From contig JANLIR010000002.1 in the NCBI GenBank assembly GCA_024654025.1, positions 168,959-232,958 on the forward strand: 64,000 nt of DNA, written 5' to 3'. Of this stretch, positions 3,075-42,890 are shown piece after piece. Origin of the DNA: Candidatus Wolfebacteria bacterium. GTDB lineage: Bacteria; Patescibacteriota; Minisyncoccia; UBA6257; UBA9933. Made by a program: the position numbers and the translations under genes. The notes beneath the pieces were generated by a model. That model was not told the origin of the DNA. It ran no database searches and saw only the letters and a list, made by a program, of their open reading frames with translations. Each line of letters begins with the position of its first letter. The first letter of the stretch is position 1.

Positions 3075-4358
3075 ATGTATAATAATCGCCTAAAAATAGT
3101 TTTGTTCGGAGCCGGAGTTATTGCACTTATTTTAGTTGTTCTAAGTGTTTTTTGCGTAATTCCGATAACAAAAAATTGTTCAAAAACTTCCGTGTCCGGA
3201 AAATTAATTTTTTGGGGAGTTGACGATGTTTCCGCTTATCAAACCGTTATAGATAATTACAGCAAGTTTTATAATAGAAAAGTTCAAATTCAATACCAGC
3301 AAATCCCCGAAGCGGATTTTGAAAATACTTTTGTTCGGGCAGTGGCTAAAAATCAAGGGCCCGATATTTTAATGTTTCATAACTCCTGGCTTATAAAACA
3401 GGGCGATCTTTTAGCTCCGGCCACTGACGCGCAAATTTCTTTAGCAAATATTCGCCAGCTTTTCCCGCAGGTTGTTGAAAAAGATTTTACTTACCAAAGT
3501 AAGGTTTACGCGCTTCCTTTATATCTCGACACTCTCGCGCTTTTTTACAATAAAGATATTTTTAATGCTAACGCCGTTGTTTTTCCGCCGGCAAATTGGA
3601 GTGATTTTACGAATTTAGCAACGAGGCTTACGAAAAAACAAGCTAACGGCCAGATTTTACAATCCGGCGCGGCTATCGGCAGCTCTGATAAAAATATCGT
3701 AAACGCAACTGATGTTTTAAATACGTTAATGCTTCAATACGGTTCTTTAATAGTTGATCCATCTTTTATGCGAACTGATTTTAGCGGTAAAGCAACCAGC
3801 GCTTTTGATTTTTACACCGGCTTTGCCAAGCCAGCTAGCAGTAATTATGTTTGGAACCAAAATTTAGGAAACTCGTTTGATTTATTCAGCCAGGGGCAGG
3901 CGGCGATGATTTTCGGTTATGCTAACCAGATTTCATATCTCAAACAAAAAAATCCGCTTTTGAATTTCGAGGTGGCGTCTATGCCGCAGGCCGATCCTTC
4001 AAATCCTAAAAATTACGCCGCTTATTGGGGCTTGGCAGTTTCTTCTAAAAGCGCGAATTCCGAACTTGCCTGGAGTTTTATAAAATACCTGACAACTGAC
4101 CCGCAAAACTCTCTTACTTATCTTCAAGCGACAAAACGGCCGCCGGCTTTGAAAATTTTAATCAAACAATATCAGAATGATCCGGATTTAAATGTTTTTG
4201 CAAACCAAGCGCTTGCGGCAACTTCATGGTATCAGCCCGACTCTGACCAAACCAGCCAGATTTTTTCAAGCGCGGTCGAATCGGTTTTAAGCGGCCAGCT
4301 TACTTCTGGGCGCGCGCTGGAAAAAGCCGCTTCTCAAATAAATAATTTATTTAAATAA
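3075..4358 (+). CDS. extracellular solute-binding protein (ABC family 1-like), N-terminal membrane anchor
   Basis: N-terminal TM helix, then LIFWGV...GPDILMFHNSW...ALPLYLDTLALFYNKD, typical of sugar-type SBPs. No permease gene nearby. Confidence 0.6.
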   Translation: MYNNRLKIVLFGAGVIALILVVLSVFCVIPITKNCSKTSVSGKLIFWGVDDVSAYQTVIDNYSKFYNRKVQIQYQQIPEADFENTFVRAVAKNQGPDILMFHNSWLIKQGDLLAPATDAQISLANIRQLFPQVVEKDFTYQSKVYALPLYLDTLALFYNKDIFNANAVVFPPANWSDFTNLATRLTKKQANGQILQSGAAIGSSDKNIVNATDVLNTLMLQYGSLIVDPSFMRTDFSGKATSAFDFYTGFAKPASSNYVWNQNLGNSFDLFSQGQAAMIFGYANQISYLKQKNPLLNFEVASMPQADPSNPKNYAAYWGLAVSSKSANSELAWSFIKYLTTDPQNSLTYLQATKRPPALKILIKQYQNDPDLNVFANQALAATSWYQPDSDQTSQIFSSAVESVLSGQLTSGRALEKAASQINNLFK

Positions 4359-4363
4359 AATTT

Positions 4364-4702
4364 ATGAATATCGCATACGCTGCTCTAACTCCTTTAGTCC
4401 AATGCGGTCCCGGAACAGCCAAGCTCGAGTGCACTATTTGTGATCTATTTCAATTGGCTCAAAATATTTATAATTTTGTTATTGTTTTTGCGTTTGTTTT
4501 GGCTTTAGGAGCTTTGGTTTGGGCGGGGTTTAAAATAATGACTTCTGCCGGCGATCCGGGAAAATATAAAGACGCGGTTGGAAAAATCAGGACGATTTTA
4601 ATCGGCATAGCCATTCTGCTTTTAGCCGGGTTTGTGGTTGATTTAGTTTTGAAAGTCCTTGTCGGCGGCAGCTTGGGTCCGTGGAATAAATTGCCTTGCT
4701 AA
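4364..4702 (+). CDS. TrbC/VirB2-like (T4SS-pilin-like) small membrane protein, paralog 1
   Basis: Cys-rich N-terminus (QCGPG..LECTICD). Two TM helices flank the motif WAGFKIMTSAGDPGKYK. Confidence 0.55.
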   Translation: MNIAYAALTPLVQCGPGTAKLECTICDLFQLAQNIYNFVIVFAFVLALGALVWAGFKIMTSAGDPGKYKDAVGKIRTILIGIAILLLAGFVVDLVLKVLVGGSLGPWNKLPC

Positions 4703-4732
4703 AAAACCAAAAAAAATTTATTATAAATATTA

Positions 4733-5152
4733 ATGAAATCGCTTTTGTTTAAAATTTCTATAGTATCAGCGATAATTTTCGCGGTTTTTACCACGAGTAT
4801 TTTTGTAGAAAAAGTTTTGGCAGTGTCCGGTGGAGGGGTTAATACAGCGGCGCCGGGCGGCGGAGTTGATTCTGTTGGCGGCGGTAACGGACAGCTTTTT
4901 AATTATTTCGGATCCGGTTCGACTCTTGACAGTGTCCTTTCCAAAATAATCGATTATTTTATCGGTGTTTCGGTTTCAGTGGCTGTGATAATAGTTATCT
5001 ATGGAGCGTGGAAAATGATGACCGCGACAGGCGATCCTAAAAAATTCCAAGAAGGCCAAAAAACAGTTTTGTACGCCGCTATCGGGTTGTTGGTAATTTT
5101 ACTCGCAAGAGGGATTATCGGCGCGTTGTATGGGATAATACAAACGTTATAA
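4733..5152 (+). CDS. TrbC/VirB2-like (T4SS-pilin-like) small membrane protein, paralog 2
   Basis: Signal/TM helix, Gly-rich linker, motif YGAWKMMTATGDPKKFQ between two TM helices. Confidence 0.55.
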   Translation: MKSLLFKISIVSAIIFAVFTTSIFVEKVLAVSGGGVNTAAPGGGVDSVGGGNGQLFNYFGSGSTLDSVLSKIIDYFIGVSVSVAVIIVIYGAWKMMTATGDPKKFQEGQKTVLYAAIGLLVILLARGIIGALYGIIQTL

Positions 5153-5192
5153 TAAATATAAAGAAAAAGGTCGAGAATGAGAAATCAAAAAA

Positions 5193-5558
5193 ATGAAAAA
5201 AGTTTTACAAAAAATTATTTATTCAGGAGCGATTTTATCGCTCGTATTGCCGGTATTTTCGTTTGCCGCGATATTTACTCCGCCAGGCCAGGGGCAACCT
5301 GGAAATATTCCTATAACCGGCCTCTCTAATGTGTATGACACGCTAGATACGGTAGCTAATTATTTGTTGGGATTATTAATTGCTTTGGCGGTTGTTTTCA
5401 TTGTTTGGGGAGCGTTTCAGTTTTTAACTTCCGGTGGAGATGAAGCAAAAACAAAAGCGGCAAGAAATCATATTCTCTGGGCTCTTGTAGCTGTCGCGGT
5501 TGGGTTACTTGCTAAAGGGCTAGTTGCCGCGATAAGAGGAATCGCCGGAAACTTATAA
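5193..5558 (+). CDS. TrbC/VirB2-like (T4SS-pilin-like) small membrane protein, paralog 3
   Basis: Signal/TM helix, motif WGAFQFLTSGGDEAKTK between two TM helices. Confidence 0.55.
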   Translation: MKKVLQKIIYSGAILSLVLPVFSFAAIFTPPGQGQPGNIPITGLSNVYDTLDTVANYLLGLLIALAVVFIVWGAFQFLTSGGDEAKTKAARNHILWALVAVAVGLLAKGLVAAIRGIAGNL

Positions 5559-5580
5559 ATTTATTTTCAATGATTCAAAA

Positions 5581-5608
5581 AATATCCCGAGTGTCGGGAT
5601 ATTTTTTT
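5581..5608 (+). terminator. rho-independent terminator after the pilin-like genes
   Basis: AATATCCCGA gtg TCGGGATATT followed by a T-run. Confidence 0.7.
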
Positions 5609-5728
5609 ACTATTTTCATCCGTATTAATCCGTATGTATTTATAATTCGCACAAATCTGTTAGAAACAAAAAAATCCCCGCCTGCGGCCGAAGCCACAAG
5701 CGGGGTGTAAAAAACTAGTTAGTTCACG

Positions 5729-6679
5729 TCAATAAATCTTCAGGAGACCCGGTTGTCCCATGGCCACTTTTATTGGGCCGAGCGGGTTTCCGTTAGTTTT
5801 CCATTTCCAAAAGCCAACCGGTCCCGCTTTCCGTGTTTCGCCGGAGCCCTCGCCAATTATGATCTGGTAAGAGTTTTGGGCGTCAATCGTTATGATTGTC
5901 CCAATGGGCGGGGTCCATGAAGTCACCGCAACGCTCCCGGCCGGAATAAAAACACCATTTCGTCCTTCTTCCGGCGTGACCACGATTTCTTTGAGAACCG
6001 GCGCACTGGGCGCAACCCCCGCTTCCGCGTTAGATGGTTTCATGGTGAGAGTCGTCACGATGCCATTGTCGATTCCCTTTGCTGAGTTCCTTGCGAGCTC
6101 GGCTGTGCGGGGAAGAAACAATGAAATGACGATTGTTATGAAAATCATCGATGCGACAAACGTTATTGCCCTTCCGTTGAAGATGGAAGTGCCTCCGAAA
6201 AGCCGAGTTCCGATAAAGATGATAAAGGCCAAGAGCAGCAGCAACGGGATCAGCTCGGGTCGTTTATCTATCGGAATGATGATAAGCATCAGGGCGAATG
6301 ATAACTCGGCGAATAATACGTGCAGCGTCAGTCGAACATACCGCTCTCCAAACCCCACTGCTGTTCTTCGCCAGATCGCGTCGATTATTAACGCAATCGG
6401 CGCGGCCAGTAAAGAAAGCAAGATCGTGAAGAACGCCCAAACAAGTCCCGCAACCGAAATCCACATCGAGAATCCGAAAATTCCCAGAAGCAGGATTGGT
6501 ATGGGCAGAAGCATCATTACGATTGCGAGCCGCGAAAGCCCGACCCGATATACTTCAAAATCGGTTCTGTTATCGCCCCCAACAAGGGCAATGACCTCGG
6601 CGGCGTCCGCCGCGCCGGTGATGATTGTGTCGAGAATGAGCCGCAGCGTTAAGAGTATTTCACGAAGTGTTTCACGCAT
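5729..6679 (-). CDS. hypothetical polytopic membrane protein with soluble C-terminal domain (GC-rich cassette)
   Basis: Start moved to ATG at 6679, preceded by GGAGGctcctcATG. It overlaps the upstream stop by 8 nt. Several TM helices. Confidence 0.6.
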   Translation of the reverse strand: MRETLREILLTLRLILDTIITGAADAAEVIALVGGDNRTDFEVYRVGLSRLAIVMMLLPIPILLLGIFGFSMWISVAGLVWAFFTILLSLLAAPIALIIDAIWRRTAVGFGERYVRLTLHVLFAELSFALMLIIIPIDKRPELIPLLLLLAFIIFIGTRLFGGTSIFNGRAITFVASMIFITIVISLFLPRTAELARNSAKGIDNGIVTTLTMKPSNAEAGVAPSAPVLKEIVVTPEEGRNGVFIPAGSVAVTSWTPPIGTIITIDAQNSYQIIIGEGSGETRKAGPVGFWKWKTNGNPLGPIKVAMGQPGLLKIY

Positions 6680-7373
6680 GAGGAGCCTCCTTTCGATATT
6701 TGGCAGTCTTCCGGCCGCGTGCTGTGCGGCGGTTATTGAGCCATTCAGCCCAACGGTCGTTGAGGGGTTGAAGTTCTGAACCAATTACTCCAAATACTTC
6801 GTTGAGACGGATCCCAAACATTCTTAGCCACTGCATGACGATGTCGTGGTTGAGAAACTCGATTGCGCTGTCGAATTCTTGCGGAGGAAGTTCGCCGAGC
6901 CAGACGAAGAAGTTGATGGTATCTTCATCGGTCGTTTCCTTCCCTTCCTCGGATTCTTTAAGTATTAAAACCTTTCCGAGACAATCCACAAGAAGATTCT
7001 CTTCGCCAGGCCGGTAATTTCCTTCGTCAGAATAAAGCCGGGGCCGACAAAACTGCCGATCTTCCTGCCTCTTTCTGATGGTTTTTGCCGCGACTTTCTT
7101 CTTTTCATCTTCGGAAGATTCCATCTTCTGTAAAAAAACGAGAAGCTTGGCGCGGTAATGGTCACTCATCTTCGCCTGCACTTTTTTAGCCGTTTCTACG
7201 GCTGCCTTGCTCCCGACTTCGCGAATGACCTCGGCGGCAGCGGTTCTTGACCCCATCTTCATAAGCCCCCAGGCTTTTCTGAGGAGTTCAAAAACAGCAA
7301 TACCCCCTGCCGTTATCCCGAGTTCCTTTCCGACTTCGCCAGCGCTGAAATCAGCTTTCTTTTCCTCTGCCAT
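6672..7373 (-). CDS. hypothetical protein (GC-rich cassette, first gene)
   Basis: ORF preceded by aaAGGAGGacgccgaccATG. No family recognised. Confidence 0.55.
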   Translation of the reverse strand: MAEEKKADFSAGEVGKELGITAGGIAVFELLRKAWGLMKMGSRTAAAEVIREVGSKAAVETAKKVQAKMSDHYRAKLLVFLQKMESSEDEKKKVAAKTIRKRQEDRQFCRPRLYSDEGNYRPGEENLLVDCLGKVLILKESEEGKETTDEDTINFFVWLGELPPQEFDSAIEFLNHDIVMQWLRMFGIRLNEVFGVIGSELQPLNDRWAEWLNNRRTARGRKTAKYRKEAPHA

Positions 7374-7543
7374 GGTCGGCGTCCTCCTTTCAGGATTTAG
7401 ATAGTTTCACTACGGGGTTGACGTAAACTATTTATAAGAGCAAATTTTGGAATAGTTGCCTACCCCAAAATACTTTGATATAATACAATAAAATTATTTA
7501 AAAGTCAACTAATGATTTTGTTAAAAAATAACAGCTAATAATG

Positions 7544-7549
7544 TATAAT
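7544..7549 (+). promoter_or_regulatory. candidate -10 box (TATAAT) for tRNA-Leu
   Basis: TGTATAAT lies 15 nt upstream of the tRNA 5' end. The -35 is weak. Confidence 0.3.
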
Positions 7550-7564
7550 TTATTTGTTTAATAT

Positions 7565-7649
7565 GTCCTCGTGGCGGAAATGGAATACGCGCAGCGCTTA
7601 GGACGCTGTCCCGCAAGGGTTGTGGGTTCGACTCCCACCGAGGACACCA
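7565..7649 (+). tRNA. tRNA-Leu(UAG), CCA encoded
   Basis: Acceptor GTCCTCG/CGAGGAC. Anticodon arm CAGCG CTTAGGA CGCTG. Long variable arm (CCC gcaa GGG). T arm GTGGG TTCGACT CCCAC. Ends ACCA. Confidence 0.9.
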
Positions 7650-7650
7650 A

Positions 7651-7686
7651 ACTATAAATCCCTTCGAGACCGAAGGGATTTATAGT
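7651..7686 (+). terminator. perfect hairpin directly after tRNA-Leu
   Basis: ACTATAAATCCCTTCG aga CGAAGGGATTTATAGT. Confidence 0.6.
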
Positions 7687-7809
7687 TTATATATCACAAG
7701 GGAGGAGAAGGGTATTTAAAAAAGCAAACTGCTTTGCTTTTTTAAAACCCCGGCTCTGGAGGAGTAATTTTCCATGTTTATTTATGAACGAAAAATTACG
7801 GGGGAAGAG

Positions 7810-7831
7810 GACTCCCACCGAGGACACAAAA
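7810..7831 (+). repeat. direct repeat of the tRNA-Leu 3' end (att-like)
   Basis: GACTCCCACCGAGGACAC at 7810-7827 is identical to 7630-7647 of the tRNA. It abuts the 3' end of the recombinase gene. Confidence 0.8.
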
Positions 7832-8800
7832 TTATCCCCTTCTTCTTCCGTGAAATGTTTTGTGTATTTCTTTGAGTTCTTTATTTGTTAAATGCGTGTA
7901 AATTTGGGTTGTGGAAATATTGCTATGGCCTAAAAGTTCTTGCACAGACCTTAAATCCGCTCCTCCGATTAATAAATCAGTGGCAAAGCTATGCCGGAGC
8001 AAATGCGGGTGGATTTTTTGCGGTATCCCCGCTTTTCGGCCGTAAAAATCTATCAAGCGCTGAATTGCGCGAGGAATAATTCTCCCGATAACTTTCGGAT
8101 TTGCTTGCCCTGAGCTCATCGAGTCTGAGACTCTCAGAGTCGAATGACTTGTCGAACGGGTTGCTTTAGTTAAGCTTACAAACAGCGCTTCTTCGGCATC
8201 GGTTCGTTTTCCTAAATAATTTTTTATAGCTTTCTTGGCGGATTCGGATAAAAACACCACTCTTATTTTCCCGCCCTTGCCCCGCACGGAAATTTCTCCC
8301 CTATTCAAATCAAAATACCGGCTCAAAGAACATAATTCTGAAACGCGAAGCCCGGTTGAAAACAAAACTTCCAAAATCGCTTTGTCGCGAAGTCCTTTTA
8401 AATCGTTTGTTTTGGGCGCTGCCATAAGCCGTTCCAAATCCGAGTATTCCATTATATTGATTTGCCGGTTTGGAATTCTAGGAAGCTCGATTTTTTCCGA
8501 AGCTAAAACCCTGTAGTCGTTTTTCGCCAAAAATTTCAAAAAGTTTCTAAGCGCTATTATGTAGTAGCTTTGGGTTGTGCGTTTAAAGTTTTCTCCATCT
8601 CTGGGATTATGAAGCCGCGCCAGATAGATCCGAAAATCTCTTACGTTGTCAGCGGTGATATCGCCCTCGGATTTTATTTTGGCGAAATCAAAAAACTTCG
8701 TTAAATAGTGCTCATAATTTTCCCGCGTGTCTTTAGTCCTGCCTTTTTCAATCTCAAGATAATCAAGATAGTTTTTGAGGAGTTTGTTTATGTCAGCCAT
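7832..8800 (-). CDS. tyrosine recombinase (XerC/XerD-like integrase)
   Basis: Catalytic-domain motifs LFSTGLRVSEL, HPHLLRHSFATDLL, LLGHSNISTTQIYTH. Start placed at MADINK (8800). Carries a roughly 25-aa internal insertion. Confidence 0.85.
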   Translation of the reverse strand: MADINKLLKNYLDYLEIEKGRTKDTRENYEHYLTKFFDFAKIKSEGDITADNVRDFRIYLARLHNPRDGENFKRTTQSYYIIALRNFLKFLAKNDYRVLASEKIELPRIPNRQINIMEYSDLERLMAAPKTNDLKGLRDKAILEVLFSTGLRVSELCSLSRYFDLNRGEISVRGKGGKIRVVFLSESAKKAIKNYLGKRTDAEEALFVSLTKATRSTSHSTLRVSDSMSSGQANPKVIGRIIPRAIQRLIDFYGRKAGIPQKIHPHLLRHSFATDLLIGGADLRSVQELLGHSNISTTQIYTHLTNKELKEIHKTFHGRRRG

Positions 8801-8806
8801 AGCTTC

Positions 8807-8841
8807 GCAACCTGTAACTTGTAACAATTAACTTATAACAA
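8807..8841. repeat. 5 x 7-nt degenerate heptad array
   Basis: GCAACCT GTAACTT GTAACAA TTAACTT ATAACAA. Confidence 0.65.
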
Positions 8842-8865
8842 ATCAGTTTTAAATATTTCTCCCTC

Positions 8866-8900
8866 TAGTTACCAGTCACTGGTTACCAATCACTAGTTAG
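8866..8900. repeat. 5 x 7-nt degenerate heptad array
   Basis: TAGTTAC CAGTCAC TGGTTAC CAATCAC TAGTTAG. Confidence 0.65.
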
Positions 8901-9006
8901 ATAATACCATTGTTCTGTCGTAAAATAAATGGTTTTATAACATGTCTTATTAAAGCAGAGCATTTTTATTGACAAATAAACATTAAAATGATACCCTTTA
9001 AAAATC

Positions 9007-9273
9007 ATGTTAACCAAAACTCAAAAGAAAAGTTTGATTAAAGAACATGCTATTAACGAAAAAGACAGCGGTTCTATGGAAGTCCAAGTTGCTTTTTTAA
9101 CTAAGCAAATAAGCGAGCTTACCGGCCATCTTAAAAAAAATCCCAAGGACCATTCTTCCAGAAGGGGGTTGCTTCAAATGGTTGGCAAGAGAAAAAGATT
9201 TCTTGATTATCTTTCAACCAAAAGAAAATCTTCTTACGACAAGATTGTTAAAAAACTCGGACTTAAAAAATAA
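9007..9273 (+). CDS. rpsO: 30S ribosomal protein S15
   Basis: GSMEVQVAFLTKQISELTGHLKKNPKDHSSRRGLLQMVGKRKRFLDYL. Confidence 0.95.
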   Translation: MLTKTQKKSLIKEHAINEKDSGSMEVQVAFLTKQISELTGHLKKNPKDHSSRRGLLQMVGKRKRFLDYLSTKRKSSYDKIVKKLGLKK

Positions 9274-9281
9274 AATTCGGC

Positions 9282-9797
9282 ATGAGAAATAAAAATCAAA
9301 GAGTAGGCATTTTTATAGATGTCCAAAATCTCTATCATTCCGCTAAGCATCTTTACGGCGGCAAGGTAAATTACAGGGAGCTTATAAAAACTCTTGTTGA
9401 CGGCCGTCAGCTAATCAGGGCTTTGGGCTATGTAGTTAAAAGCGAAACCTCCGATAAATCAGCGCCTACCGGCGAGGCGTCGTTTTTTGAGGCTTTGGAA
9501 AAAGCAGGCGTGGAACTAAGAATGAAAGATATCCAGGTTTTTCCGGGAGGCGTTAAAAAAGCCAACTGGGACGTGGGTATGGCTGTTGACGCTCTGAGAA
9601 TGTCCAGTTTTTTGGATGTCATAATTTTAGTTACTGGCGACGGCGATTTTGAACCGCTTGTTGAATATATCCAGTGGGGCATGGGCAGGATTGTTGAAGT
9701 TGCCGCTTTCAGTTATAATACTTCATCGAAATTAAAAGAAGCGGCCGATCTTTTTATTAATTTAGAAAAAAATCCCAGAATAATGATAAAAAAATAA
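9282..9797 (+). CDS. NYN/LabA-like (PIN-like) domain protein
   Basis: RVGIFIDVQNLYHSA...ILVTGDGDFEPLV, the hallmark of NYN domain proteins. Confidence 0.8.
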   Translation: MRNKNQRVGIFIDVQNLYHSAKHLYGGKVNYRELIKTLVDGRQLIRALGYVVKSETSDKSAPTGEASFFEALEKAGVELRMKDIQVFPGGVKKANWDVGMAVDALRMSSFLDVIILVTGDGDFEPLVEYIQWGMGRIVEVAAFSYNTSSKLKEAADLFINLEKNPRIMIKK

Positions 9798-9798
9798 A

Positions 9799-11910
9799 AT
9801 GCTTGAATCCAAAGAATTTTCAATTGATTTTCAAGGGAAACCCTTGAGCTTAAAAGTTTCCAAAATTGCCGAGCAAGCCAACTCGGCTGTTTTAGGCCAG
9901 TACGGCGATACCGTGGTTCTAGTAACCGCCACGATGGGCGAAAAAGACCGCGATACGGATTATTTTCCTTTGGTAGTTGATTACGAAGAAAAATTTTATG
10001 CCGCCGGAAAAATTATCGGCAGCCGGTTTATTCGGCGCGAAGGCCGGCCTTCGGAAGAAGCTATTCTTTCCGGAAGAATGATTGACCGGGCGCTTCGGCC
10101 CTTTTTTAATTCACGGATGAGAAGAGATGTTCAAATTGTAATCACTATCCTTTCTTACGACGAAGAAAACGATCCGGATTTTATTTCGCTTCTCTCCGCT
10201 TCAACCGCCTTGGCAATTTCCGATATTCCGTGGAATGGCCCTGTTGCCGGAGTAAGATTGGCAAAAATGAAAGGCGGAAATTTAATGATTAATCCGACCA
10301 AGACGGAAATTAGCGGCAGTGAATTTTTATTCGAATCTTTTGTCGCCGGAAATGAAAGTAAAATAAATATGATAGAACTGGCGGCAAACGAAGTTTCCGA
10401 AAAAGAAGTTATTAGTTCATTTGAAACAGCCCAGGAAGAAATAAAAAAATTGATAAAATTCCAAAAAGAAATTATTCCCAAAATCAGCAAACCAAAAGCC
10501 GAAGTGCTTCTTGTTGAGCCGGATCCGAATTTAAAGCATAAAGTTCAGGAATTTTTAAAAAATAAATTAGAAAACGCAGTTTATGTTTCCGATAAAGCCC
10601 AGCAGCGCCATATTTTGCGAAAGTTAAAAGAAGATTTGAAAGAGCATTTGGTTTCTGAGGGGCTAATTCCGGAAGGAATTGATGCTATTGTAGAGGAAGA
10701 AATCGACGCGCTTATCCATAAAAATATTTTGGAAAAAGATATGAGGCCGGACTCTCGAAAACTCGATGAGGTCAGAGCGCTTTTCGGCCAAGTCGGTTTA
10801 TTTAAACGGCTTCACGGTTCCGCCTTGTTTTTTAGGGGTAGTACTCAATCGTTGGCAGTTACAACTTTAGCCGCTCCCGGACAGGAGCAAATGATAGAAA
10901 CAATGGAAGTTTCAGGGAAACGCAGATTTATGCTCCATTACAATTTTCCGCCTTATTCGGTTGGAGAAATAGGCAGACTGGGCGGACCGGGACGCCGAGA
11001 AGTCGGCCACGGCGCTTTGGCGGAAAAAGCCATAAGGTCAATAATCCCCTCAAAAGAGGAATTCCCTTATACTATCCGTGTTGTTTCAGAGATTTTGTCT
11101 TCAAACGGGTCATCTTCTATGGCAACTGTCTGCTCGTCGGTATTATCGCTAATGGATGCAGGTGTTCCTATTAAAAAGCCGGTGGCAGGCATTGCTATGG
11201 GAATTATTATGGGACAAGCGACAAGCGACAAGCGACAAGATTACAAAGTGCTGACCGATATTCAAGGCCCGGAAGATCACTACGGCGATATGGATTGTAA
11301 AGTTGCAGGCACAACCGACGGAATTACCGCCATACAAATGGACGTGAAAATTGACGGCGTTACCACCGAAATTTTAAATGACGTGTTAGTTCAAGCCAAA
11401 AAAGCCCGCCTTGAGATTTTGGAAGTTATGAAATCCGTTATTGATAAGCCTAGGGAAAAACTTTCAGAGTTCGCGCCAATTATTTTGACAATCAACATTA
11501 GTCCGGAAAGAATCGGCGAAGTTATCGGCCCGGGCGGAAAAATGATTAATATGATAATTAAAGACACCGGCGTTACGACAATAGATATCGAACAAACCGG
11601 AAAAGTTTTTGTTTCCGCCACTACTCCCGAACAAGCCCAAGCGGCGATTGGGTTCATCCAATCCTTAACAAAAGAATTCGAGGTCGGCGAAATTATTGAA
11701 GGCAAGATTATCAAACTTTTGGAATTTGGAGCCATTGTCGATTTGGGAGGCGGCAATGACGGAATGATTCACATTTCAGAAGTAAAAAGCGGATTTGTAA
11801 AAGATATTAATGAAGTTCTTAAATTGGGCGATGTTGTGAGGGCAAAAATTATAAAAGTTGAAAACGGAAAAATCGGACTTTCGATAAAAGCCTTGGCGGA
11901 ACAAAAATAG
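9799..11910 (+). CDS. pnp: polynucleotide phosphorylase
   Basis: Two RNase PH domains (GSALFFRGSTQ, SSNGSSSMATVC, DHYGDMDCKVAGT), then KH (GPGGKMINMI) and S1 (GAIVDLGGGNDGMIHISE). Confidence 0.97.
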   Translation: MLESKEFSIDFQGKPLSLKVSKIAEQANSAVLGQYGDTVVLVTATMGEKDRDTDYFPLVVDYEEKFYAAGKIIGSRFIRREGRPSEEAILSGRMIDRALRPFFNSRMRRDVQIVITILSYDEENDPDFISLLSASTALAISDIPWNGPVAGVRLAKMKGGNLMINPTKTEISGSEFLFESFVAGNESKINMIELAANEVSEKEVISSFETAQEEIKKLIKFQKEIIPKISKPKAEVLLVEPDPNLKHKVQEFLKNKLENAVYVSDKAQQRHILRKLKEDLKEHLVSEGLIPEGIDAIVEEEIDALIHKNILEKDMRPDSRKLDEVRALFGQVGLFKRLHGSALFFRGSTQSLAVTTLAAPGQEQMIETMEVSGKRRFMLHYNFPPYSVGEIGRLGGPGRREVGHGALAEKAIRSIIPSKEEFPYTIRVVSEILSSNGSSSMATVCSSVLSLMDAGVPIKKPVAGIAMGIIMGQATSDKRQDYKVLTDIQGPEDHYGDMDCKVAGTTDGITAIQMDVKIDGVTTEILNDVLVQAKKARLEILEVMKSVIDKPREKLSEFAPIILTINISPERIGEVIGPGGKMINMIIKDTGVTTIDIEQTGKVFVSATTPEQAQAAIGFIQSLTKEFEVGEIIEGKIIKLLEFGAIVDLGGGNDGMIHISEVKSGFVKDINEVLKLGDVVRAKIIKVENGKIGLSIKALAEQK
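11213..11240 (+). repeat. heptanucleotide tandem repeat inside pnp
   Basis: GACAAGC x3 (perfect) plus GACAAGA. Encodes QATSDKRQD. Confidence 0.85.
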
Positions 11911-11916
11911 AAAACA

Positions 11917-11945
11917 AAAAACTCGCCACTAGGCGAGTTTTTTAG
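11917..11945. terminator. bidirectional terminator hairpin between pnp and rpsT
   Basis: aaaaACTCGCC acta GGCGAGTttttt. Overlaps the last rpsT codons. Confidence 0.7.
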
Positions 11946-12183
11946 TTAAGCGAGACTTAAGCCGAGCCGCCTTATTTTTTGCTATTATCTTCACTTTCGC
12001 GGCCTTGTCTAATTTTTTATAAACGGTTTTTAGCTGCTCTCTTGCTTTTTCTTTGTCTTTGGCTTCAAGGAGATTTTTGTATTCCTTGAGAACTTTTCTT
12101 AAATCAATTTTTCTTTTCGCGTTTATTTTTCTTTTCCGCTCGCTTTGTCTTAAAGCTTTTTTTGCTGATTTTGTTCTTGGCAT
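11929..12183 (-). CDS. rpsT: 30S ribosomal protein S20
   Basis: MPRTKSAKKALRQSERKRKINAKRK... basic helical protein of typical S20 length. Confidence 0.9.
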   Translation of the reverse strand: MPRTKSAKKALRQSERKRKINAKRKIDLRKVLKEYKNLLEAKDKEKAREQLKTVYKKLDKAAKVKIIAKNKAARLKSRLTKKLA

Positions 12184-12338
12184 ATGAATTAAAATTTGTT
12201 TACGTTCGTTATCTTATTATATAAGAGATTAATTGTCAACGCGTCTTTTACCAAAACTTGTGCGGGGTAAAAGAAGGATAAAAAATGGCCAGAGCAAGGC
12301 TCCGGCCAACGGGCGTATTTCTTCTCGGCGTTTTAGGT

Positions 12339-12905
12339 TTATTGTCCGAATTCATCGGATATATAAACCGACATTTCTTGAAATGCTTTATCATACAAGT
12401 TACTGTTCGGGGCGGTGTCGTTTAGGATTTGTACGCACTGATTAAATGTCAGGTGAATATCGCGGCAAATTTTATTCTCCACTTCCTTCTTGACGCATCT
12501 GACCTTTTCACGGAATTCATAACATACATTCAATAATTTAAACAGCGTGTATAGTTTATCAAAGTCATCCCCCGCCTTTTCTTTCATTTTGGAAATTATT
12601 TTATCGCGGCTTTTGCAGGCGGAAATGGTTGATTCATCTCGCGGAGTAAGGTCAAAAAGCGTTTTCCAGTGCCAAAAATCCGAAGCGCGTTTTTCCATTA
12701 AGTCCCAAATAAGCAGTTTACGACCGAAATAAATATTTGCTCGGTAAATTTTGACCAATTGATCAAACTCAAGCGCGGCGATAAAATCTTGGGAGATAAT
12801 TTTTGTGTTGTGGAGCAGTGAAACCGCCAGTCCGAAGTCAAGTCCTTTAAAAGCCAATATTTCGATCGTGTCTTTCAGTTCTTGCGCCCTTTGGTTCTGG
12901 TCCAT
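12339..12905 (-). CDS. hypothetical protein (GC-richer cassette)
   Basis: ORF preceded by tGGGGGTGAatcATG. No family recognised. Confidence 0.5.
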   Translation of the reverse strand: MDQNQRAQELKDTIEILAFKGLDFGLAVSLLHNTKIISQDFIAALEFDQLVKIYRANIYFGRKLLIWDLMEKRASDFWHWKTLFDLTPRDESTISACKSRDKIISKMKEKAGDDFDKLYTLFKLLNVCYEFREKVRCVKKEVENKICRDIHLTFNQCVQILNDTAPNSNLYDKAFQEMSVYISDEFGQ

Positions 12906-13049
12906 GATTCACCCCCATAGGATTTCGCCATTTTTGGCGTGAAGAGTGTGCCGATTTAAATAAAAACTGATTACAAACTAAGTTAAAAACGCATTGCTGT
13001 CAATTTCCTTCCCTTTATACTTTTTGCTTTCTACTTTATACTATCCATA

Positions 13050-13628
13050 ATGATTTACTCTCTCTCTGGAAAGCTCACCGTAAAAACCAAACTTTTTATC
13101 ATTATTGAAACAAGTGGAATCGGCTTTAAAGTTTTTGTTTCGCGGCGGACAATTAATAAGCTTCCGAAAATAAATTCGAAAGCGAAAATTTTTTGCCATA
13201 CTTACGTCAAACAAGACGGAATCGAGCTTTACGGATTTTACGATAAAACCGAAATGGACGTTTTTGAAATGTTAACTTCAATTAGCGGCGTTGGTCCGAA
13301 AATGGCTTTAAAAATTTTATCGGTCATAAAACCGGAAGAATTAATGTCGGCCGTAAATAAAAACCGCGCCGATCTTCTTACAAAAATTTCCGGAGTCGGC
13401 AAAAAAACAGCCGAGCGGATAATTTTGGAATTAAAAGACAAAATAGCCGTTAAAGAAAGCGAAGAAATTATTTCTATGCTGGAAATCGATATTGACATTT
13501 CCGAAGCGCTCAAAAGAATGGGTTATAGGCAAAACGAAGTGAAGGAAGCCGTAAAAGCTATTTCTTCAAAAAGCGAAAAACCGGAAGAAAGAATAAGGGA
13601 AGCATTGAAATTTTTAAATAAAAGATAG
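13050..13628 (+). CDS. ruvA: Holliday junction DNA helicase RuvA
   Basis: N-terminal OB fold, HhH motifs (LTSISGVGPKMALKIL, LTKISGVGKKTAERIILELK), C-terminal domain III. Confidence 0.9.
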   Translation: MIYSLSGKLTVKTKLFIIIETSGIGFKVFVSRRTINKLPKINSKAKIFCHTYVKQDGIELYGFYDKTEMDVFEMLTSISGVGPKMALKILSVIKPEELMSAVNKNRADLLTKISGVGKKTAERIILELKDKIAVKESEEIISMLEIDIDISEALKRMGYRQNEVKEAVKAISSKSEKPEERIREALKFLNKR

Positions 13629-13635
13629 TTAAATT

Positions 13636-13780
13636 TATTCCCAATCAAATATATTCCCGCTACCGTTCAACCGCCCAGCGAGCGATTTCACTGGCGCCGC
13701 TTCTTCGCTCGGTCGCCACAGGCGACCACCGTGCCCGCTCAGTCGCGGAGCCGCGCTGTGAATATATTTGTTTGAGAATA
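13636..13780. mobile_element. MITE-like element or structured RNA: GC-rich core between 21-nt imperfect terminal inverted repeats
   Basis: TATTCCCAATCAAATATATTC (13636-13656) pairs with GAATATATTTGTTTGAGAATA (13760-13780), 19/21. The core contains GGTCGCC aca GGCGACC. Confidence 0.5.
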
Positions 13781-13790
13781 TCAAATAAAA

Positions 13791-15152
13791 ATGAATTTAG
13801 AAAAAATTTTAAATTTAGGAAGGAAAGTTATTCCAAAGCCTGTTTTTGAATTTTTTCAGCCAGCCTACCATTGGATGCTGGCTTTTTTAGGCGCTTTTCT
13901 TTACGGCTCTCCGTCAAAAAATATGATAATTATCGGAGTTACGGGCACAAAAGGCAAAACTACCACTTGCGATCTTATTGCTCAAATTTTAAATTCGTTC
14001 GGCTATAAAACCGCGCTTGTTACCACTGCCTTGGTGCGCATAGGAGACGAGGAGTGGAAAAACGAGCATAAACAAACAATGCTTGGCCGGTTTAAGCTCC
14101 AGAAATTTTTAAGCCAAGCCGACGAGTTAAAATGCCGGTACGCTGTTGTGGAGACATCTTCAGAAGGTATTTTGCAATACAGGCACCGGTTTATAGATTA
14201 TGATGTGGCGGTTTTTACCAATCTATTCCCTGAACACATAGAACGCCACGGCGGTTTTGAAAATTATAGAAACGCTAAAGTAAAATTATTCGAAAAACTG
14301 GCAAAAAAAGACAACGGAATAGGAATTTATAATTTAGATGATTCGGATGTTAATTATTTTTTGGAGCCCGGAATAAAAACAAAAATAGGATATACAATAA
14401 ATAACCAACGACCAACAACTATTAATCAAGAACTCATGGAATCTTTGCAGAAAATTATCGAAGTTAAAAATATTGAACAGGGACTAGACGGATCGAAATT
14501 TTCAATTAATGGCGAGAGATTCAAAACTCCCCTGATAGGAGAATTTAATGTGTACAATGCGGTAGCCGCTATTACTGTTGCGATATCCCAAGGTGTTCCG
14601 CTTAATAAAATAAAACCTATTATTAGCAGAGCAAAACAAACTCCCGGCAGATTGGAAAAAGTAGAAAACGAAAAAGGATTCACGGTCATTATTGATTACG
14701 CGCATGAACCGTTTAGTTTGGAATCGGTTTACAAAGCAGCCGCAAGTTACAAAGCGAAACCTAAAAGTTCTATGTTGTGCCTTTTGGGAGCCCAAGGCGG
14801 CGGACGAGACAGATGGAAGAGGCCGAAAATGGGAAGTATCGCCGCTCAATATTGCGATAAGATAATTTTAACAAATGAAGATCCTTACGACGAAAATCCA
14901 AATCAAATTTTAGACGATATCGAGGAAGGCGTTCGAGCTGGATTTCGCAACAATCCAAAAAAATTCGCAACCGTAAATAAAATTATAGATAGAAAAGAAG
15001 CAATCCAAAAAGCTGTTTCTCTTGCGAAAAAAGGCGATGTTGTGGTTTTAACCGGTAAAGGCGGAGAAACATTTATGTGTATTGAGAATAATAAAAAAAA
15101 TCTCTGGGATGAAAAAACGGTTGTTGAAGAGGTATTGAATAGTTTCTCATAA
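13791..15152 (+). CDS. Mur ligase family protein (MurE-like)
   Basis: GVTGTKGKTTT P-loop, DYAHEPFSLESV, TNEDPYDENP. Confidence 0.75.
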   Translation: MNLEKILNLGRKVIPKPVFEFFQPAYHWMLAFLGAFLYGSPSKNMIIIGVTGTKGKTTTCDLIAQILNSFGYKTALVTTALVRIGDEEWKNEHKQTMLGRFKLQKFLSQADELKCRYAVVETSSEGILQYRHRFIDYDVAVFTNLFPEHIERHGGFENYRNAKVKLFEKLAKKDNGIGIYNLDDSDVNYFLEPGIKTKIGYTINNQRPTTINQELMESLQKIIEVKNIEQGLDGSKFSINGERFKTPLIGEFNVYNAVAAITVAISQGVPLNKIKPIISRAKQTPGRLEKVENEKGFTVIIDYAHEPFSLESVYKAAASYKAKPKSSMLCLLGAQGGGRDRWKRPKMGSIAAQYCDKIILTNEDPYDENPNQILDDIEEGVRAGFRNNPKKFATVNKIIDRKEAIQKAVSLAKKGDVVVLTGKGGETFMCIENNKKNLWDEKTVVEEVLNSFS

Positions 15153-15217: not shown

Positions 15218-15718
15218 ATGGATAAGCAGATCTACTATGGGTTGCTGTCTCTTATTCCTATTTCGGGCATTGTTCTAGTTACTGTCACTGCAATTTTATT
15301 GATTGTAAAGTTGAGGGCGGTTAAGGGGCAAACGATAATAGTGCTTTTTATAATTGGAGTTGCTCTATGCGAGCTTCGGCCGCAAGAATTAAAAAACGTC
15401 ACGATTTTTTCTGAGTTGCCAGACAATCGTTATCAAATTGCCGGTCAAGTGCCAACAGTTAATTATGCGATAATTAGCTACAAGGGAAGAAATGGAATCG
15501 ATGTGGTAATGGTTAAGGATGTTCCGGGCGATTTAAAATTAGGCACGATTTTTGTCATTAAAAATGGGCAGGTGGAAATAGAGTGGCAACCGGAAGACCA
15601 ACAAGAGGAACAACAAAAAAAAGAACAAAAAGAAGAGACAGAGGAATATAGATTCGGTCCGTATGATTTTCGTATCAGGGCGGCCTCCAAAGATAAGGAG
15701 GCTGCTTTTTTTGCGTAA
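15218..15718 (+). CDS. hypothetical membrane-anchored protein (GC-richer cassette)
   Basis: GAGGAGGGGGtagcgATG RBS, two N-terminal TM helices, acidic/Gln-rich tail. Confidence 0.5.
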   Translation: MDKQIYYGLLSLIPISGIVLVTVTAILLIVKLRAVKGQTIIVLFIIGVALCELRPQELKNVTIFSELPDNRYQIAGQVPTVNYAIISYKGRNGIDVVMVKDVPGDLKLGTIFVIKNGQVEIEWQPEDQQEEQQKKEQKEETEEYRFGPYDFRIRAASKDKEAAFFA

Positions 15719-16031: not shown

Positions 16032-16214
16032 CTAATAGTGAAAGGTCAGGATCGACTTCATGAAAGCGGGATACCGAGAAGTCAGGATCACCATCATGAA
16101 GGCGAACACGGTCATGATCAGCATCCCTCTGAATATCGGCTGGAAAAACCTGCGAGTGAAGTGGTCATTCCGCTTCCTTTTGCTGTTGTGCTTCTGGTTC
16201 GTATAAATAAACAT
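16032..16214 (-). CDS. hypothetical small membrane protein (GC-rich cassette)
   Basis: GGGGGGTGAaaATG at 16214, one TM helix (GMLIMTVFAFMMVILT), 60 aa. Confidence 0.4.
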   Translation of the reverse strand: MFIYTNQKHNSKRKRNDHFTRRFFQPIFRGMLIMTVFAFMMVILTSRYPAFMKSILTFHY

Positions 16215-41601: not shown

Positions 41602-41784
41602 ATGAAAGCAGAACAGATTTCTCGTGTAAACGGAATGCTTCGCCGGCATCGAAAAGTCGTGTGCGTGCTTTGCGGGCAAACTCCGAGAGGCGAAGTCGTA
41701 AAGCGTAAGAAGAAGGACGAGGGAACGTGTTTCCCGGCGCAATGCGGGAAGGTTTTATACTCTCCGGTGCTTCCGCTCCAGTAA
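41602..41784 (+). CDS. hypothetical small zinc-ribbon-like protein (GC-rich cassette)
   Basis: tAAGGAGGTGAccgATG. CVLCG...CFPAQCG (4 Cys). 60 aa. Confidence 0.45.
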   Translation: MKAEQISRVNGMLRRHRKVVCVLCGQTPRGEVVKRKKKDEGTCFPAQCGKVLYSPVLPLQ

Positions 41785-42874: not shown

Positions 42875-42890
42875 TTTTTGTTTTTTATAG

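What the first reader, a model, noticed from the sequence alone, without database searches (positions are those of the whole stretch)
5729..7373. GC-rich two-gene cassette with canonical SD sites in a genome whose native genes lack them
By eye, 5729-7373 is much GC-richer than its neighbours (not computed). Both genes have strong RBSs (AGGAGGacgccgaccATG and GGAGGctcctcATG), an 8-nt coupled overlap, and a GC hairpin terminator (CCCCGC...GCGGGG at 5683-5712).

Native genes in the window have no SD. Examples are gyrA agcgaagcgtATG, pnp aaaaaataaaATG, clpB tttttataatATG, argS gatttttaATG and parA acttattgcATG.

The products are a 233-aa soluble protein and a 316-aa polytopic membrane protein with a beta-rich C-terminal domain. 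Neither matches a family I recognise. The cassette lies next to the tRNA-Leu/att-like repeat/recombinase locus.
Basis: partly seen in the sequence, partly recalled or inferred. Interest (0 to 1): 0.6.

Follow-up and report, generated by a model that had tools for sequence, protein, structure and literature searches.

The report
Conserved SD-led membrane operon beside pilin genes
The GC-rich two-gene cassette is real, but it is not a recent insertion: it fills a fixed gene slot found throughout this group of tiny symbiotic bacteria, and whatever sits in that slot always carries classical ribosome-binding sites that almost no other gene in these genomes has.

Summary
Observation confirmed. Window 5729-7373 has 51.1% GC against 39.5% elsewhere and is the most deviant stretch of the window. 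Both genes carry AAGGAGG Shine-Dalgarno (SD) sites, which only 2 of the 60 other ORFs of at least 80 aa have.

The "foreign cassette at a tRNA/att/recombinase site" reading is only partly right. The window is from a Candidatus Wolfebacteria genome. Every close relative has the same cassette at the same place, still GC-rich and SD-led.

Across 26 Parcubacteria loci the layout is conserved: tRNA-Leu(UAG), a divergent geneA-geneB operon, then a convergent VirB2-like pilin array, SBP and gyrA.
- GeneA is either an SPFH/Band_7 protein or the unnamed all-alpha family found here ("solA").
- GeneB ("memB" here) is a membrane anchor with a hypervariable C-terminal beta domain.
- Slot genes are SD-led in 52 of 55 cases, against 19 of 382 other ORFs.

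Modules are swapped between lineages, and cassette GC3 does not track host GC3. The att-like repeat is a separate 180-bp insert on the other side of the tRNA.

Biochemical function is unknown. My best guess is a membrane module that displays a variable surface domain and is linked to the pilin locus.

The parts
7480..7508 (-). Sigma-70-like promoter of the cassette: TTGACT, 17 nt, TATTAT.
   Evidence: scores it 10 of 12. The same TTGACT-N~15-TRTGCTATAWT (extended -10) promoter lies at the equivalent place upstream of the slot operon in about 16 of the 20 leaders printed.
7444..7471 (-). Hairpin in the 5' leader, between the promoter and the SD.
   Evidence: 12-bp stem. Leader hairpins at the same relative position but with different sequences occur in other loci. 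No function was tested.
7383..7389 (-). Shine-Dalgarno AAGGAGG of the first gene, 9 nt before the ATG.
   Evidence: duplex -11.9 kcal/mol. Kept as GAAAGGRGG in the close relatives L001, L002 and L005; L006 reads GAAGGAGG.
6672..7373 (-). solA: 233-aa soluble all-alpha protein of an unnamed family, with no TM segment.
   Evidence: ORF. Five close homologues. 62 representative clusters at E<1e-3 in an exhaustive HMM search. Conserved motifs RxELxxF, ASxNLxRRQxxRQ, YxPGDE and FxWLGxxxDxEFDxxLEFLxHDxxxQW. AF2 model is all-helical, pLDDT 62, pTM 0.59. dN/dS is 0.13-0.15.
6686..6692 (-). Shine-Dalgarno AAGGAGG of the second gene, inside the end of solA and 6 nt before the ATG.
   Evidence: Conserved in relatives.
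6065..6679 (-). memB residues 1-205: amphipathic N-terminus plus about 5 transmembrane helices, nearly invariant among relatives.
   Evidence: Alignment A1. Hydropathy and positive-inside analysis suggests N-in, C-out. dN/dS is 0.14-0.20.
5729..6064 (-). memB residues 206-316 plus the stop codon: Pro/Ala/Ser linker and a beta-rich C-terminal domain. It is hypervariable and allele-swapped, and probably extracytoplasmic.
   Evidence: There are three mutually near-unalignable types among genomes whose GyrA is 91-96% identical. dS is 1.3 to saturated. Topology is inferred.
5676..5705 (-). Intrinsic terminator of the cassette: 13-bp stem with 10 G-C pairs, followed by a T-run.
7565..7649 (+). tRNA-Leu(UAG), transcribed divergently from the cassette. 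It is the conserved left border of the slot.
   Evidence: The same tRNA lies 80-400 bp from geneA, or up to about 720 bp where an extra SD-led ORF intervenes, in 19 of 22 loci scanned.
4364..5558 (+). Array of three VirB2-like T4SS_pilin genes, convergent with the cassette. It is the conserved right border of the slot.
   Evidence: Pfam PF18895, E = 4e-11 to 3e-9. The adjacency is conserved in all long loci.

Best explanation
What is shown.
- 5729-7373 is a genuine, self-contained operon. It has a strong sigma-70-type promoter, a leader with a hairpin, SD-led solA, an 8-nt overlap to SD-led memB, and an intrinsic terminator.
- It occupies a gene slot conserved across Parcubacteria: xer, tRNA-Leu(UAG) pointing away, then geneA-geneB, then a convergent VirB2-like pilin array, SBP and gyrA.
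- Within the Wolfebacteria genus-level clade it was inherited together with its flanks. The neighbouring recombinase did not insert it.
- The slot's content is modular. GeneA is an SPFH/Band_7 protein in most lineages and the solA family in others. GeneB is always a membrane anchor ending in a small beta-rich domain.
- GeneA type and geneB ectodomain have been exchanged between lineages by recombination.
- Whatever fills the slot has GGAGG at SD spacing.

What is inferred.
- The lateral exchange explains why this allele set has a GC and codon usage out of equilibrium with its host.
- The slot genes depend on a classical SD, unlike about 95% of other genes in these genomes.
- SolA is a cytoplasmic helical partner. 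It is a functional stand-in for the SPFH scaffold.
- MemB has five TM helices with N-in, C-out topology. It displays a hypervariable domain of about 110 aa on the cell surface.
- The pair works at the envelope in recognition of, or evasion from, a partner (host cell or phage). It is probably connected to the adjacent pilin array.
For: Reality and anatomy:
- dN/dS of 0.13-0.20 shows purifying selection.

Same site in all close relatives:
- GC is 0.50-0.51 in the cassette against 0.39-0.41 in the flanks, and the SD is kept.
- dS of solA and the memB TM domain (0.43-0.69) is similar to that of the flanking genes (0.22-1.05) for the window against L001 and L002.

Faster and mosaic evolution:
- Flank proteins are 91-99% identical. 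SolA is 60-85% and memB 64-76% identical.
- The memB TM domain is nearly invariant while the C-terminal domain is swapped.
- SolA and memB give incongruent identity patterns between genomes.

Conserved slot:
- tRNA-Leu(UAG) lies upstream in 19 of 22 loci scanned.
- SPFH-type geneA: three geneA tested against Pfam Band_7 gave E = 9e-15, 1e-12 and 5e-5. All 13 match one HMM built from these geneA, so they are mutually homologous.
- A solA-family geneA is found in L014 (E = 2e-27) and in L077, L078, L080-L083 and L085.

SD enrichment:
- 27 of 29 and 25 of 26 slot genes are SD-led, against 7 of 180 and 12 of 202 other ORFs. Fisher P = 3e-25 and 3e-23.

Module exchange:
- The geneB ectodomain of L082 (solA-type) is 50% identical (E = 2e-38) to that of L023 (SPFH-type).
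- The two cassette types are interleaved on a Xer tree.

Composition and topology:
- Cassette GC3 is uncorrelated with host GC3 (r = 0.26, n = 19).

Background: VirB2-like pilin arrays are described in Patescibacteria and are essential in one cultured species (bioRxiv 10.1101/2025.01.22.634366).
Against: - No biochemical function is established. There is no family, fold or solved-structure match.
- The memB model is unusable (pLDDT 49).
- Homology between memB and the downstream membrane proteins of distant solA loci is marginal (hhalign probability 33%).
- The window's ectodomain is not demonstrably related to those of SPFH-type loci (probability 5%). 'Same system' therefore rests on architecture, position and the L082/L023 link.
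- The link to the pilins is only adjacency, in convergent orientation.
- GC3 excess is not universal in the slot. It is strong in 5 of the 19 independent lineages and negative in L037 and L083.
- The Xer tree is a rough neighbour-joining tree of one protein.
- Gene starts for non-cassette ORFs are first-ATG guesses, which could undercount SD sites.
- The 16S 3' end could not be read, so canonical SD pairing is assumed rather than shown.
Confidence: 0.55

Rival explanations
1. Recent horizontally acquired islet. A foreign two-gene cassette was inserted next to tRNA-Leu by the adjacent tyrosine recombinase, with the att-like repeat as its scar. It still carries donor GC, codon usage and SD sites.
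For: - Atypical GC, tetranucleotide content and codon usage.
- SD sites that the host's genes lack.
- A tRNA gene, a duplicated tRNA 3' end and a Phage_integrase-family gene within 1.5 kb.
Against: - Both repeat copies lie on the 3' side of the tRNA, and the cassette is on the 5' side.
- L001 lacks the 180-bp repeat-bounded insert but has the cassette.
- The recombinase is a Xer-type gene syntenic with S15-NYN-pnp across more than 40 Patescibacteria loci.
- The cassette is present in every close relative, with dS like the flanks.
- An equivalent SD-led operon fills the same slot in all 26 syntenic loci.
Confidence: 0.07
2. Domesticated remnant ("moron") of a Parcubacteria mobile element or prophage. 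SD-led, GC-richer genes with their own terminators would be the signature of these organisms' mobilome. The slot would be a preferred landing site that is repeatedly reloaded.
For: - Other SD-led genes in these genomes are mostly small accessory ORFs.
- They sometimes occur in runs, for example seven in L027 at 5597-15029.
- The window has two more SD-led, GC-rich ORFs next to tmRNA, a classic integration site. At least the first, and apparently both, end in a terminator-like hairpin.
- Extra SD-led ORFs lie beside the slot in L006, L014, L015, L016 and L039.
- Cassette GC3 is decoupled from host GC3.
Against: - There are no relatives of solA in IMG/VR viral contigs by pattern plus tblastn.
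- There are no credible PHROG hits (best E = 0.01-0.05) and no BFVD fold match.
- The slot is never empty.
- Orientation, promoter type and distance to the tRNA are constant. That fits a resident operon better than repeated insertion.
- Purifying selection acts on both genes.
Confidence: 0.2
3. Anti-phage defence or toxin-immunity pair. It would consist of a membrane effector plus a cytoplasmic sensor or antidote, evolving fast under an arms race at a tRNA-linked defence hotspot.
For: - Fast, mosaic evolution with module swapping.
- A two-gene, translationally coupled architecture.
- A tRNA and recombinase neighbourhood.
Against: - No PADLOC hit for either protein at E<=1.
- No nuclease, protease, NTPase or toxin domain was found.
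- The hypervariable part is a predicted extracytoplasmic beta domain rather than a catalytic module.
- Universal presence in the slot is unlike the patchy distribution of defence systems.
Confidence: 0.1
4. Assembly chimera or contaminating fragment from a GC-richer organism.
For: Only the sharp compositional step.
Against: - The same junctions occur on both sides in at least 9 independent assemblies from different samples and pipelines.
- Flanks and cassette co-diverge.
Confidence: 0.01

Closest known systems
SPFH/Band_7 operons with a small membrane partner (SPFH-NfeD type, e.g. E. coli qmcA-ybbJ, B. subtilis yuaF-floT; from general knowledge)
   Same: In most Parcubacteria the same slot holds a Band_7 protein followed by a membrane-anchored protein with a small C-terminal beta domain. 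Like those operons, this is a two-gene, coupled membrane module. One ectodomain is shared between an SPFH-type and a solA-type cassette.
   Different: The window's geneA has no Band_7 domain, and no geneB tested hits NfeD. The beta domain here is hypervariable and predicted to be outside the cell. The NfeD OB-fold is conserved and cytoplasmic.
Rare SD-led genes in SD-poor bacteria (Bacteroidia, where the anti-SD is sequestered and a few genes such as rpsU keep strong SDs; from general knowledge). Also the reported frequent absence of the anti-SD motif and of bS21 in Parcubacteria (Tsurumaki et al. 2022, PMC9297842).
   Same: In a genome where about 95% of genes lack an SD, a small conserved set keeps a strong one at canonical spacing.
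   Different: Here the SD-led set is an accessory envelope operon, not a ribosomal-protein autoregulatory gene. The state of the 16S 3' end in this clade is unknown, and no specialised-ribosome mechanism has been shown.
tRNA-linked genomic islets and phage 'morons' (self-contained promoter-gene-terminator units of atypical GC)
   Same: It has its own promoter and terminator, atypical GC and codon usage, and lies next to a tRNA and a tyrosine recombinase.
   Different: There are no flanking att repeats and no presence/absence polymorphism. It is conserved in position and orientation across an order-level group.
Variable VirB2-like pilin arrays of Patescibacteria type IV secretion loci (bioRxiv 10.1101/2025.01.22.634366)
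   Same: The cassette directly abuts such an array. Both show high sequence variability, which for the pilins has been interpreted as adaptation to different hosts.
   Different: The cassette proteins are not pilins and match no T4SS component profile in Pfam (TrbL/VirB6 not hit). It is transcribed convergently, so it is not part of the pilin operon. It is not mentioned in the passages of that survey that I read.

Membership tests
tRNA-integrated genomic island | Direct repeats (att) derived from the tRNA 3' end flank the element. | tested here: not met
   The 18-mer occurs only at 7630 and 7810. Both copies are 3' of the tRNA, and the cassette is 5' of it.
tRNA-integrated genomic island | Presence/absence polymorphism among relatives (an empty site exists). 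| tested here: not met
   All close relatives have the cassette and all 26 syntenic loci have a filled slot.
tRNA-integrated genomic island | Composition atypical for the host. | tested here: met
   GC z = 4.2, tetranucleotide z = 5.6, codon usage z about 3.
tRNA-integrated genomic island | The element carries its own integrase. | tested here: not met
   The adjacent Phage_integrase gene is a Xer-type gene with host-like GC (0.41). It is syntenic with S15-NYN-pnp in dozens of Patescibacteria.
SPFH/Band_7 - NfeD operon | GeneA contains a Band_7 (PF01145) domain. | tested here: not met
   The window's solA has no Pfam hit at E<=1. The positional counterparts in L015, L020 and L025 do hit Band_7.
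SPFH/Band_7 - NfeD operon | The partner contains an NfeD domain (PF01957). | tested here: not met
   No Pfam hit for memB (E<=1) or for three SPFH-type partners (E<=0.01).
T4SS inner-membrane component VirB6/TrbL | Sequence match to VirB6/TrbL profiles; encoded with virB4. | tested here: not met
   No Pfam hit for memB. None of the neighbouring genes examined, nor the Pfam hits on record for called genes in the related loci, includes a virB4 family. The rest of the window was not scanned for virB4.
Known anti-phage defence systems (PADLOC-DB) | Match to any defence protein model. | tested here: not met
   0 families for both proteins at E<=1.
Diversity-generating retroelement target | A nearby reverse transcriptase and a template repeat matching the variable region. 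| tested here: not met
   No long repeat matches 5729-6064 within 4000-10000. None of the six neighbouring proteins scanned is an RT, and no RT family is on record for called genes in the related loci. The variants differ throughout, not at adenines only.
Canonical Shine-Dalgarno-led gene | GGAGG-type motif 4-10 nt upstream of the start, conserved in orthologues. | tested here: met
   Spacing is 9 and 6 nt. The motif is conserved in relatives and in 52 of 55 slot genes.
Canonical Shine-Dalgarno-led gene | A complementary anti-SD (CCUCC) is present at the 16S rRNA 3' end of the same organism. | not testable with these tools
   No 16S rRNA lies in the window or in any fetched locus. The literature reports the motif in only 48% of Parcubacteria 16S sequences.

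The most novel reading that the evidence does not exclude
Parcubacteria keep a small, conserved set of SD-dependent genes in genomes that have otherwise abandoned the SD, and in some lineages reportedly the anti-SD as well. The flagship of this set would be a previously undescribed, modular envelope operon fixed between tRNA-Leu(UAG) and the VirB2-like pilin array. It pairs an SPFH or solA scaffold with a membrane anchor that carries a swappable, hypervariable ectodomain. In this reading the operon is a host- or phage-recognition determinant of the episymbiont, and its translation is gated by a distinct initiation mode. That mode could be ribosomes with a free anti-SD, or some other reader of GGAGG if the anti-SD is absent.
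Probability: 0.2. Interest if true: 0.8.

Novelty: new variant of a known kind. Interest (0 to 1): 0.6.

Why it matters
Patescibacteria are a huge, mostly uncultured branch of bacteria that live attached to other cells. How they recognise partners is largely unknown, and so is how their reduced ribosomes start translation. This finding gives three concrete handles.

1. A conserved genomic slot lies next to the pilin array. That array is essential in the one genetically tractable relative. The slot encodes a membrane protein with a rapidly swapped surface domain, which makes it a candidate specificity determinant.
2. There is an unnamed protein family (solA, at least 62 clusters at 50% identity) that alternates with SPFH scaffolds at the same position. 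This suggests a shared role.
3. There is a very clean natural contrast inside single genomes: 52 of 55 slot genes are SD-led, against 19 of 382 other ORFs. It can be used to test whether SD-dependent initiation survives in Parcubacteria, where the anti-SD is reported to be often missing.

For annotation practice, the case also shows that atypical GC next to a tRNA and an integrase does not by itself mean a recent island.

Tried and rejected
Searches that found nothing for solA or memB:
- Family searches of both proteins in Pfam, NCBIfam, PHROGs and PADLOC gave nothing credible.
- A profile of 41 solA-family members against PDB sequences gave best E = 0.4, and every member scanned against Pfam gave only scattered chance hits.
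- AlphaFold2 of memB with 6 sequences gave pLDDT 49, so it was not used for fold search.
- The afdb50 library was not available.
- The viral-contig scan with the solA alignment found no relatives. The first attempt failed because no conserved stretch was found.
- The third word-indexed protein search, run with the family profile, added nothing.

Homology tests that were marginal, so I do not claim homology:
- hhalign of memB against the distant downstream membrane proteins gave probability 33%.
- hhalign of the window's ectodomain against SPFH-type ectodomains gave probability 5%.

Attempts to read the 16S 3' end:
- No rRNA is in the window.
- There is no 1492R-like site in 86 held sequences.
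- The LAGLIDADG gene near the syntenic region in L012 is free-standing, not in an rRNA intron.

Ideas considered and dropped:
- PspA/IM30-like identity for solA. There is no PF04012 hit, and the model is a compact multi-helix bundle, not long hairpins.
- VirB6 identity for memB (no hit).
- DGR target (no RT, no template repeat).
- A highly expressed native gene with codon bias. S15, PNPase and GyrA have neither an SD nor high GC3.
- Amino-acid composition as the sole cause of high GC. GC3 alone is raised by 0.16.
Full report
**1. The observation**

The window comes from a Candidatus Wolfebacteria (Parcubacteria/Patescibacteria) metagenome-assembled genome. The membrane protein is 100% identical to NCBI protein NUV83_00900, on a 248.7-kb contig.

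Composition:
- The stretch 5729-7373 has 51.1% GC, against 39.5% for the rest of the window.
- It is the top of 1,248 same-length sliding windows (z = 4.2) and the most deviant in tetranucleotide content (z = 5.6).
- GC3 is 0.58 and 0.53, against a mean of 0.39 and sd 0.05 for the window's genes.
- GC1 and GC2 are also raised, but the GC3 shift of +0.16 shows this is not only amino-acid composition.
- Synonymous codon usage is about 3 sd from the host pool.

Anatomy:
- Two minus-strand genes, 6672-7373 (233 aa, "solA") and 5729-6679 (316 aa, "memB"), overlap by 8 nt.
- Each is preceded by AAGGAGG, at 9 and 6 nt from the ATG.
- Only 2 of the 60 other ORFs of at least 80 aa in the window reach the same SD-duplex threshold.
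- A 13-bp G+C-rich hairpin with a T-run follows memB at 5676-5705.
- A TTGACT-17-TATTAT promoter-like site lies at 7508-7480.

**2. Not a chimera, and not private to this genome**

Homologues of both proteins are few: 6 and 5 clusters in 5.8 billion sequences. Every contig that carries them has the same context: gyrA, SBP, three T4SS_pilin genes, then convergently memB and solA, then tRNA-Leu(UAG), a Xer-type recombinase, S15, NYN and PNPase. L011 lacks the tRNA and xer.

These contigs come from at least 9 independent assemblies. In all of them the cassette is about 50% GC against about 40% flanks, and it keeps GAAAGGRGG-type SD sites.

**3. How it evolves**

| Comparison with the window's relatives | Value |
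|---|---|
| GyrA, PNPase, NYN, pilin 1, pilin 3 identity | 87-99% |
| solA identity | 60-85% |
| memB identity | 64-76% |
| dN/dS, solA | 0.13-0.15 |
| dN/dS, memB TM domain | 0.14-0.20 |
| dS, solA and memB TM domain (vs L001, L002) | 0.43-0.69 |
| dS, flanking genes | 0.22-1.05 |
| dS, memB C-terminal domain | 1.3 to saturated |
| dS, solA of L006 | 2.2 |

- The alignment shows why memB is so diverged. Residues 1-205 (amphipathic N-terminus plus about five TM helices) are almost invariant. The C-terminal domain of about 110 aa falls into three types that barely align.
- SolA also has a replaced block in L006 and L011.
- The low dN/dS values show that both are real genes under purifying selection.
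- The similar dS values show that cassette and flanks diverged together within this clade.
- The high dS of the ectodomain and of L006's solA points to older alleles brought in by recombination.

**4. The att-like repeat is a separate feature**

The 18-mer GACTCCCACCGAGGACAC occurs only at 7630 (the tRNA 3' end) and 7810. Both copies are on the recombinase side of the tRNA, while the cassette is on the other side. L002 has the same 180-bp repeat-bounded insert. L001 has the tRNA abutting xer, with no insert, yet it has the cassette.

The recombinase itself has host-like GC. It is syntenic with S15-NYN-pnp in dozens of Patescibacteria.

**5. The wider picture: a conserved slot**

I used the Xer protein to fetch 64 loci from species-representative genomes, and a metagenome scan with solA relatives. 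Together they gave 26 loci with the tRNA-Leu(UAG)/pilin-array synteny, or part of it.

- In every one, a two-gene operon (sometimes three or four genes) lies between the tRNA and the pilin array. It is divergent from the tRNA and convergent with the pilins.
- In 13 loci geneA is an SPFH-type protein. Three of these geneA were tested against Pfam Band_7, with E down to 9e-15. All 13 match one HMM built from these same geneA, which shows they are mutually homologous.
- In the window clade and in L014, L077, L078, L080-L083 and L085, geneA is a member of the solA family (E = 2e-27 for L014).
- An exhaustive profile search finds 62 solA-family clusters at 50% identity.
- The family's conserved motifs are RxELxxF, ASxNLxRRQxxRQ, YxPGDE and FxWLGxxxDxEFDxxLEFLxHD.
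- The family has no Pfam, PDB or viral counterpart.
- GeneB is always a membrane protein with 1-6 TM helices that ends in a small beta-rich domain.

The modules are shuffled:
- The ectodomain of the solA-type geneB in L082 is 50% identical (E = 2e-38) to that of the SPFH-type geneB in L023.
- The two geneA types are interleaved on a Xer tree.

**6. The SD signal belongs to the slot, not just to this genome's cassette**

| Loci | SD-led slot genes | SD-led other ORFs in the same loci | Fisher P |
|---|---|---|---|
| solA-type | 27 of 29 | 7 of 180 | 3e-25 |
| SPFH-type | 25 of 26 | 12 of 202 | 3e-23 |

These counts use a duplex threshold of -8 kcal/mol.

- The motifs sit 4-10 nt before the start codons.
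- About 16 of the 20 slot-operon leaders printed share a TTGACT-N~15-TRTGCTATAWT promoter with an extended -10. Several also have a leader hairpin.
- The GC3 excess is strong in the window clade (z = 3.0-3.8) and in L014, L082, L020 and L025.
- It is absent or reversed in other loci.
- Cassette GC3 does not track host GC3 (r = 0.26, n = 19).

I read this as follows. The SD is a conserved functional property of the slot. The GC anomaly reflects which allele set a lineage happens to carry after lateral exchange.

**7. What it probably does**

From sequence:
- SolA has no TM segment.
- MemB has about five TM helices, with Arg-rich loops at 104-116 and 159-170. This implies N-in, C-out topology. 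It would put the Pro/Ala/Ser linker and the hypervariable beta domain outside the cell (inference).

The following points suggest an envelope module that presents a variable surface domain, with solA as the cytoplasmic partner or scaffold:
- The positional alternation with SPFH scaffolds.
- The fast, modular evolution of the exposed domain.
- The invariable adjacency to VirB2-like pilin arrays. These arrays are themselves variable in Patescibacteria and are essential in one cultured species (bioRxiv 10.1101/2025.01.22.634366).

Whether the partner recognised is a host cell, a phage or something else is open.

**8. Why the SD matters**

Tsurumaki et al. 2022 (PMC9297842) report that the anti-SD motif was found in only 48% of Parcubacteria 16S sequences, and that bS21 is often absent. 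I could not read the 16S 3' end of this clade.

If the anti-SD is present, these operons are a rare SD-dependent class in otherwise SD-independent genomes. That would be reminiscent of the few SD-led genes of Bacteroidia (general knowledge). If it is absent, the conserved GGAGG motifs are unexplained.

Other SD-led ORFs in these loci are mostly small accessory genes, sometimes in runs, as in L027. That keeps alive the rival view that the SD marks the mobilome of these organisms.

**9. Verdict**

- The "foreign islet at a tRNA/att/integrase site" interpretation is only partly supported.
- The feature is best described as the local version of a conserved, modular, SD-led envelope operon slot of Parcubacteria.
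- Its gene pair (the solA family plus a polytopic anchor with a hypervariable ectodomain) is undescribed.
- The biochemical function remains inferred.

Noticed in passing
window 7630-7835: A 180-bp segment bounded by a duplicated tRNA-Leu 3' end (18 of 18 nt, at 7630-7647 and 7810-7827). It contains two hairpins: 7649-7688 (perfect 18-bp arms) and 7705-7756. It is present in the window and in L002 but absent in L001, where the tRNA abuts xer. It looks like the scar or remnant of a small element integrated at the tRNA, independent of the cassette.
   Followed up: partly
window 41602-41784 (+) and 43739-43978 (-): Two more small ORFs (60 and 79 aa) with strong SD sites (taaggaggtga; cgaaaggaggc, the same context as memB) and GC of 0.50-0.52. 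At least the first, and apparently both, end in a G+C-rich terminator-like hairpin. They flank the tmRNA (42890-43206) and the putative smpB gene. The first has a CxxC...C pattern. They have no PHROG hits.
   Followed up: partly
window 12339-12905 (-), 15218-15718 (+), 16032-16214 (-): The only other SD-like leaders in the window (GGGGGTGA, AGGAGGGGG, GGGGGGTGA). The first and third keep the motif in the orthologous ORFs of L002 (3334-3909 and 474-656). They are not GC-rich.
   Followed up: no
window 4733-5152 (second pilin gene), especially ~4815-4864: The middle pilin of the three-gene VirB2-like array is much more variable between relatives (68-83% identity) than its two neighbours (80-99%). 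It contains a Gly-rich, locally 69% GC stretch.
   Followed up: no
L027 5597-15029: A run of seven small SD-led genes (AAGGAGGTG-type) in a Jorgensenbacteria contig whose other genes lack an SD. This may be an integrated mobile element, and it bears on whether the SD marks the mobilome in these organisms.
   Followed up: no
L014 11172-12476; L080 9297-9953; L081 1181-1774; L077 300-1337: Many solA-type cassettes have one or two extra upstream genes, most of them SD-led (L080's is not). Those of L014 (second ORF), L080 and L081 give weak Ig-like (Big_1/Big_3_5) Pfam hits. The window's cassette lacks them.
   Followed up: partly
window 8800-8827: The recombinase ORF is listed from a TTG at 8827. 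Homologues begin at MADINKLL, so the true start is probably the ATG at 8800.
   Followed up: no
L012 1760-2263 (-); equivalent to L008 79-564: A free-standing LAGLIDADG homing-endonuclease gene lies near the syntenic UPF0102/Mur-ligase region in a relative. It is not inside an rRNA or a recognisable intron (Rfam search negative).
   Followed up: partly
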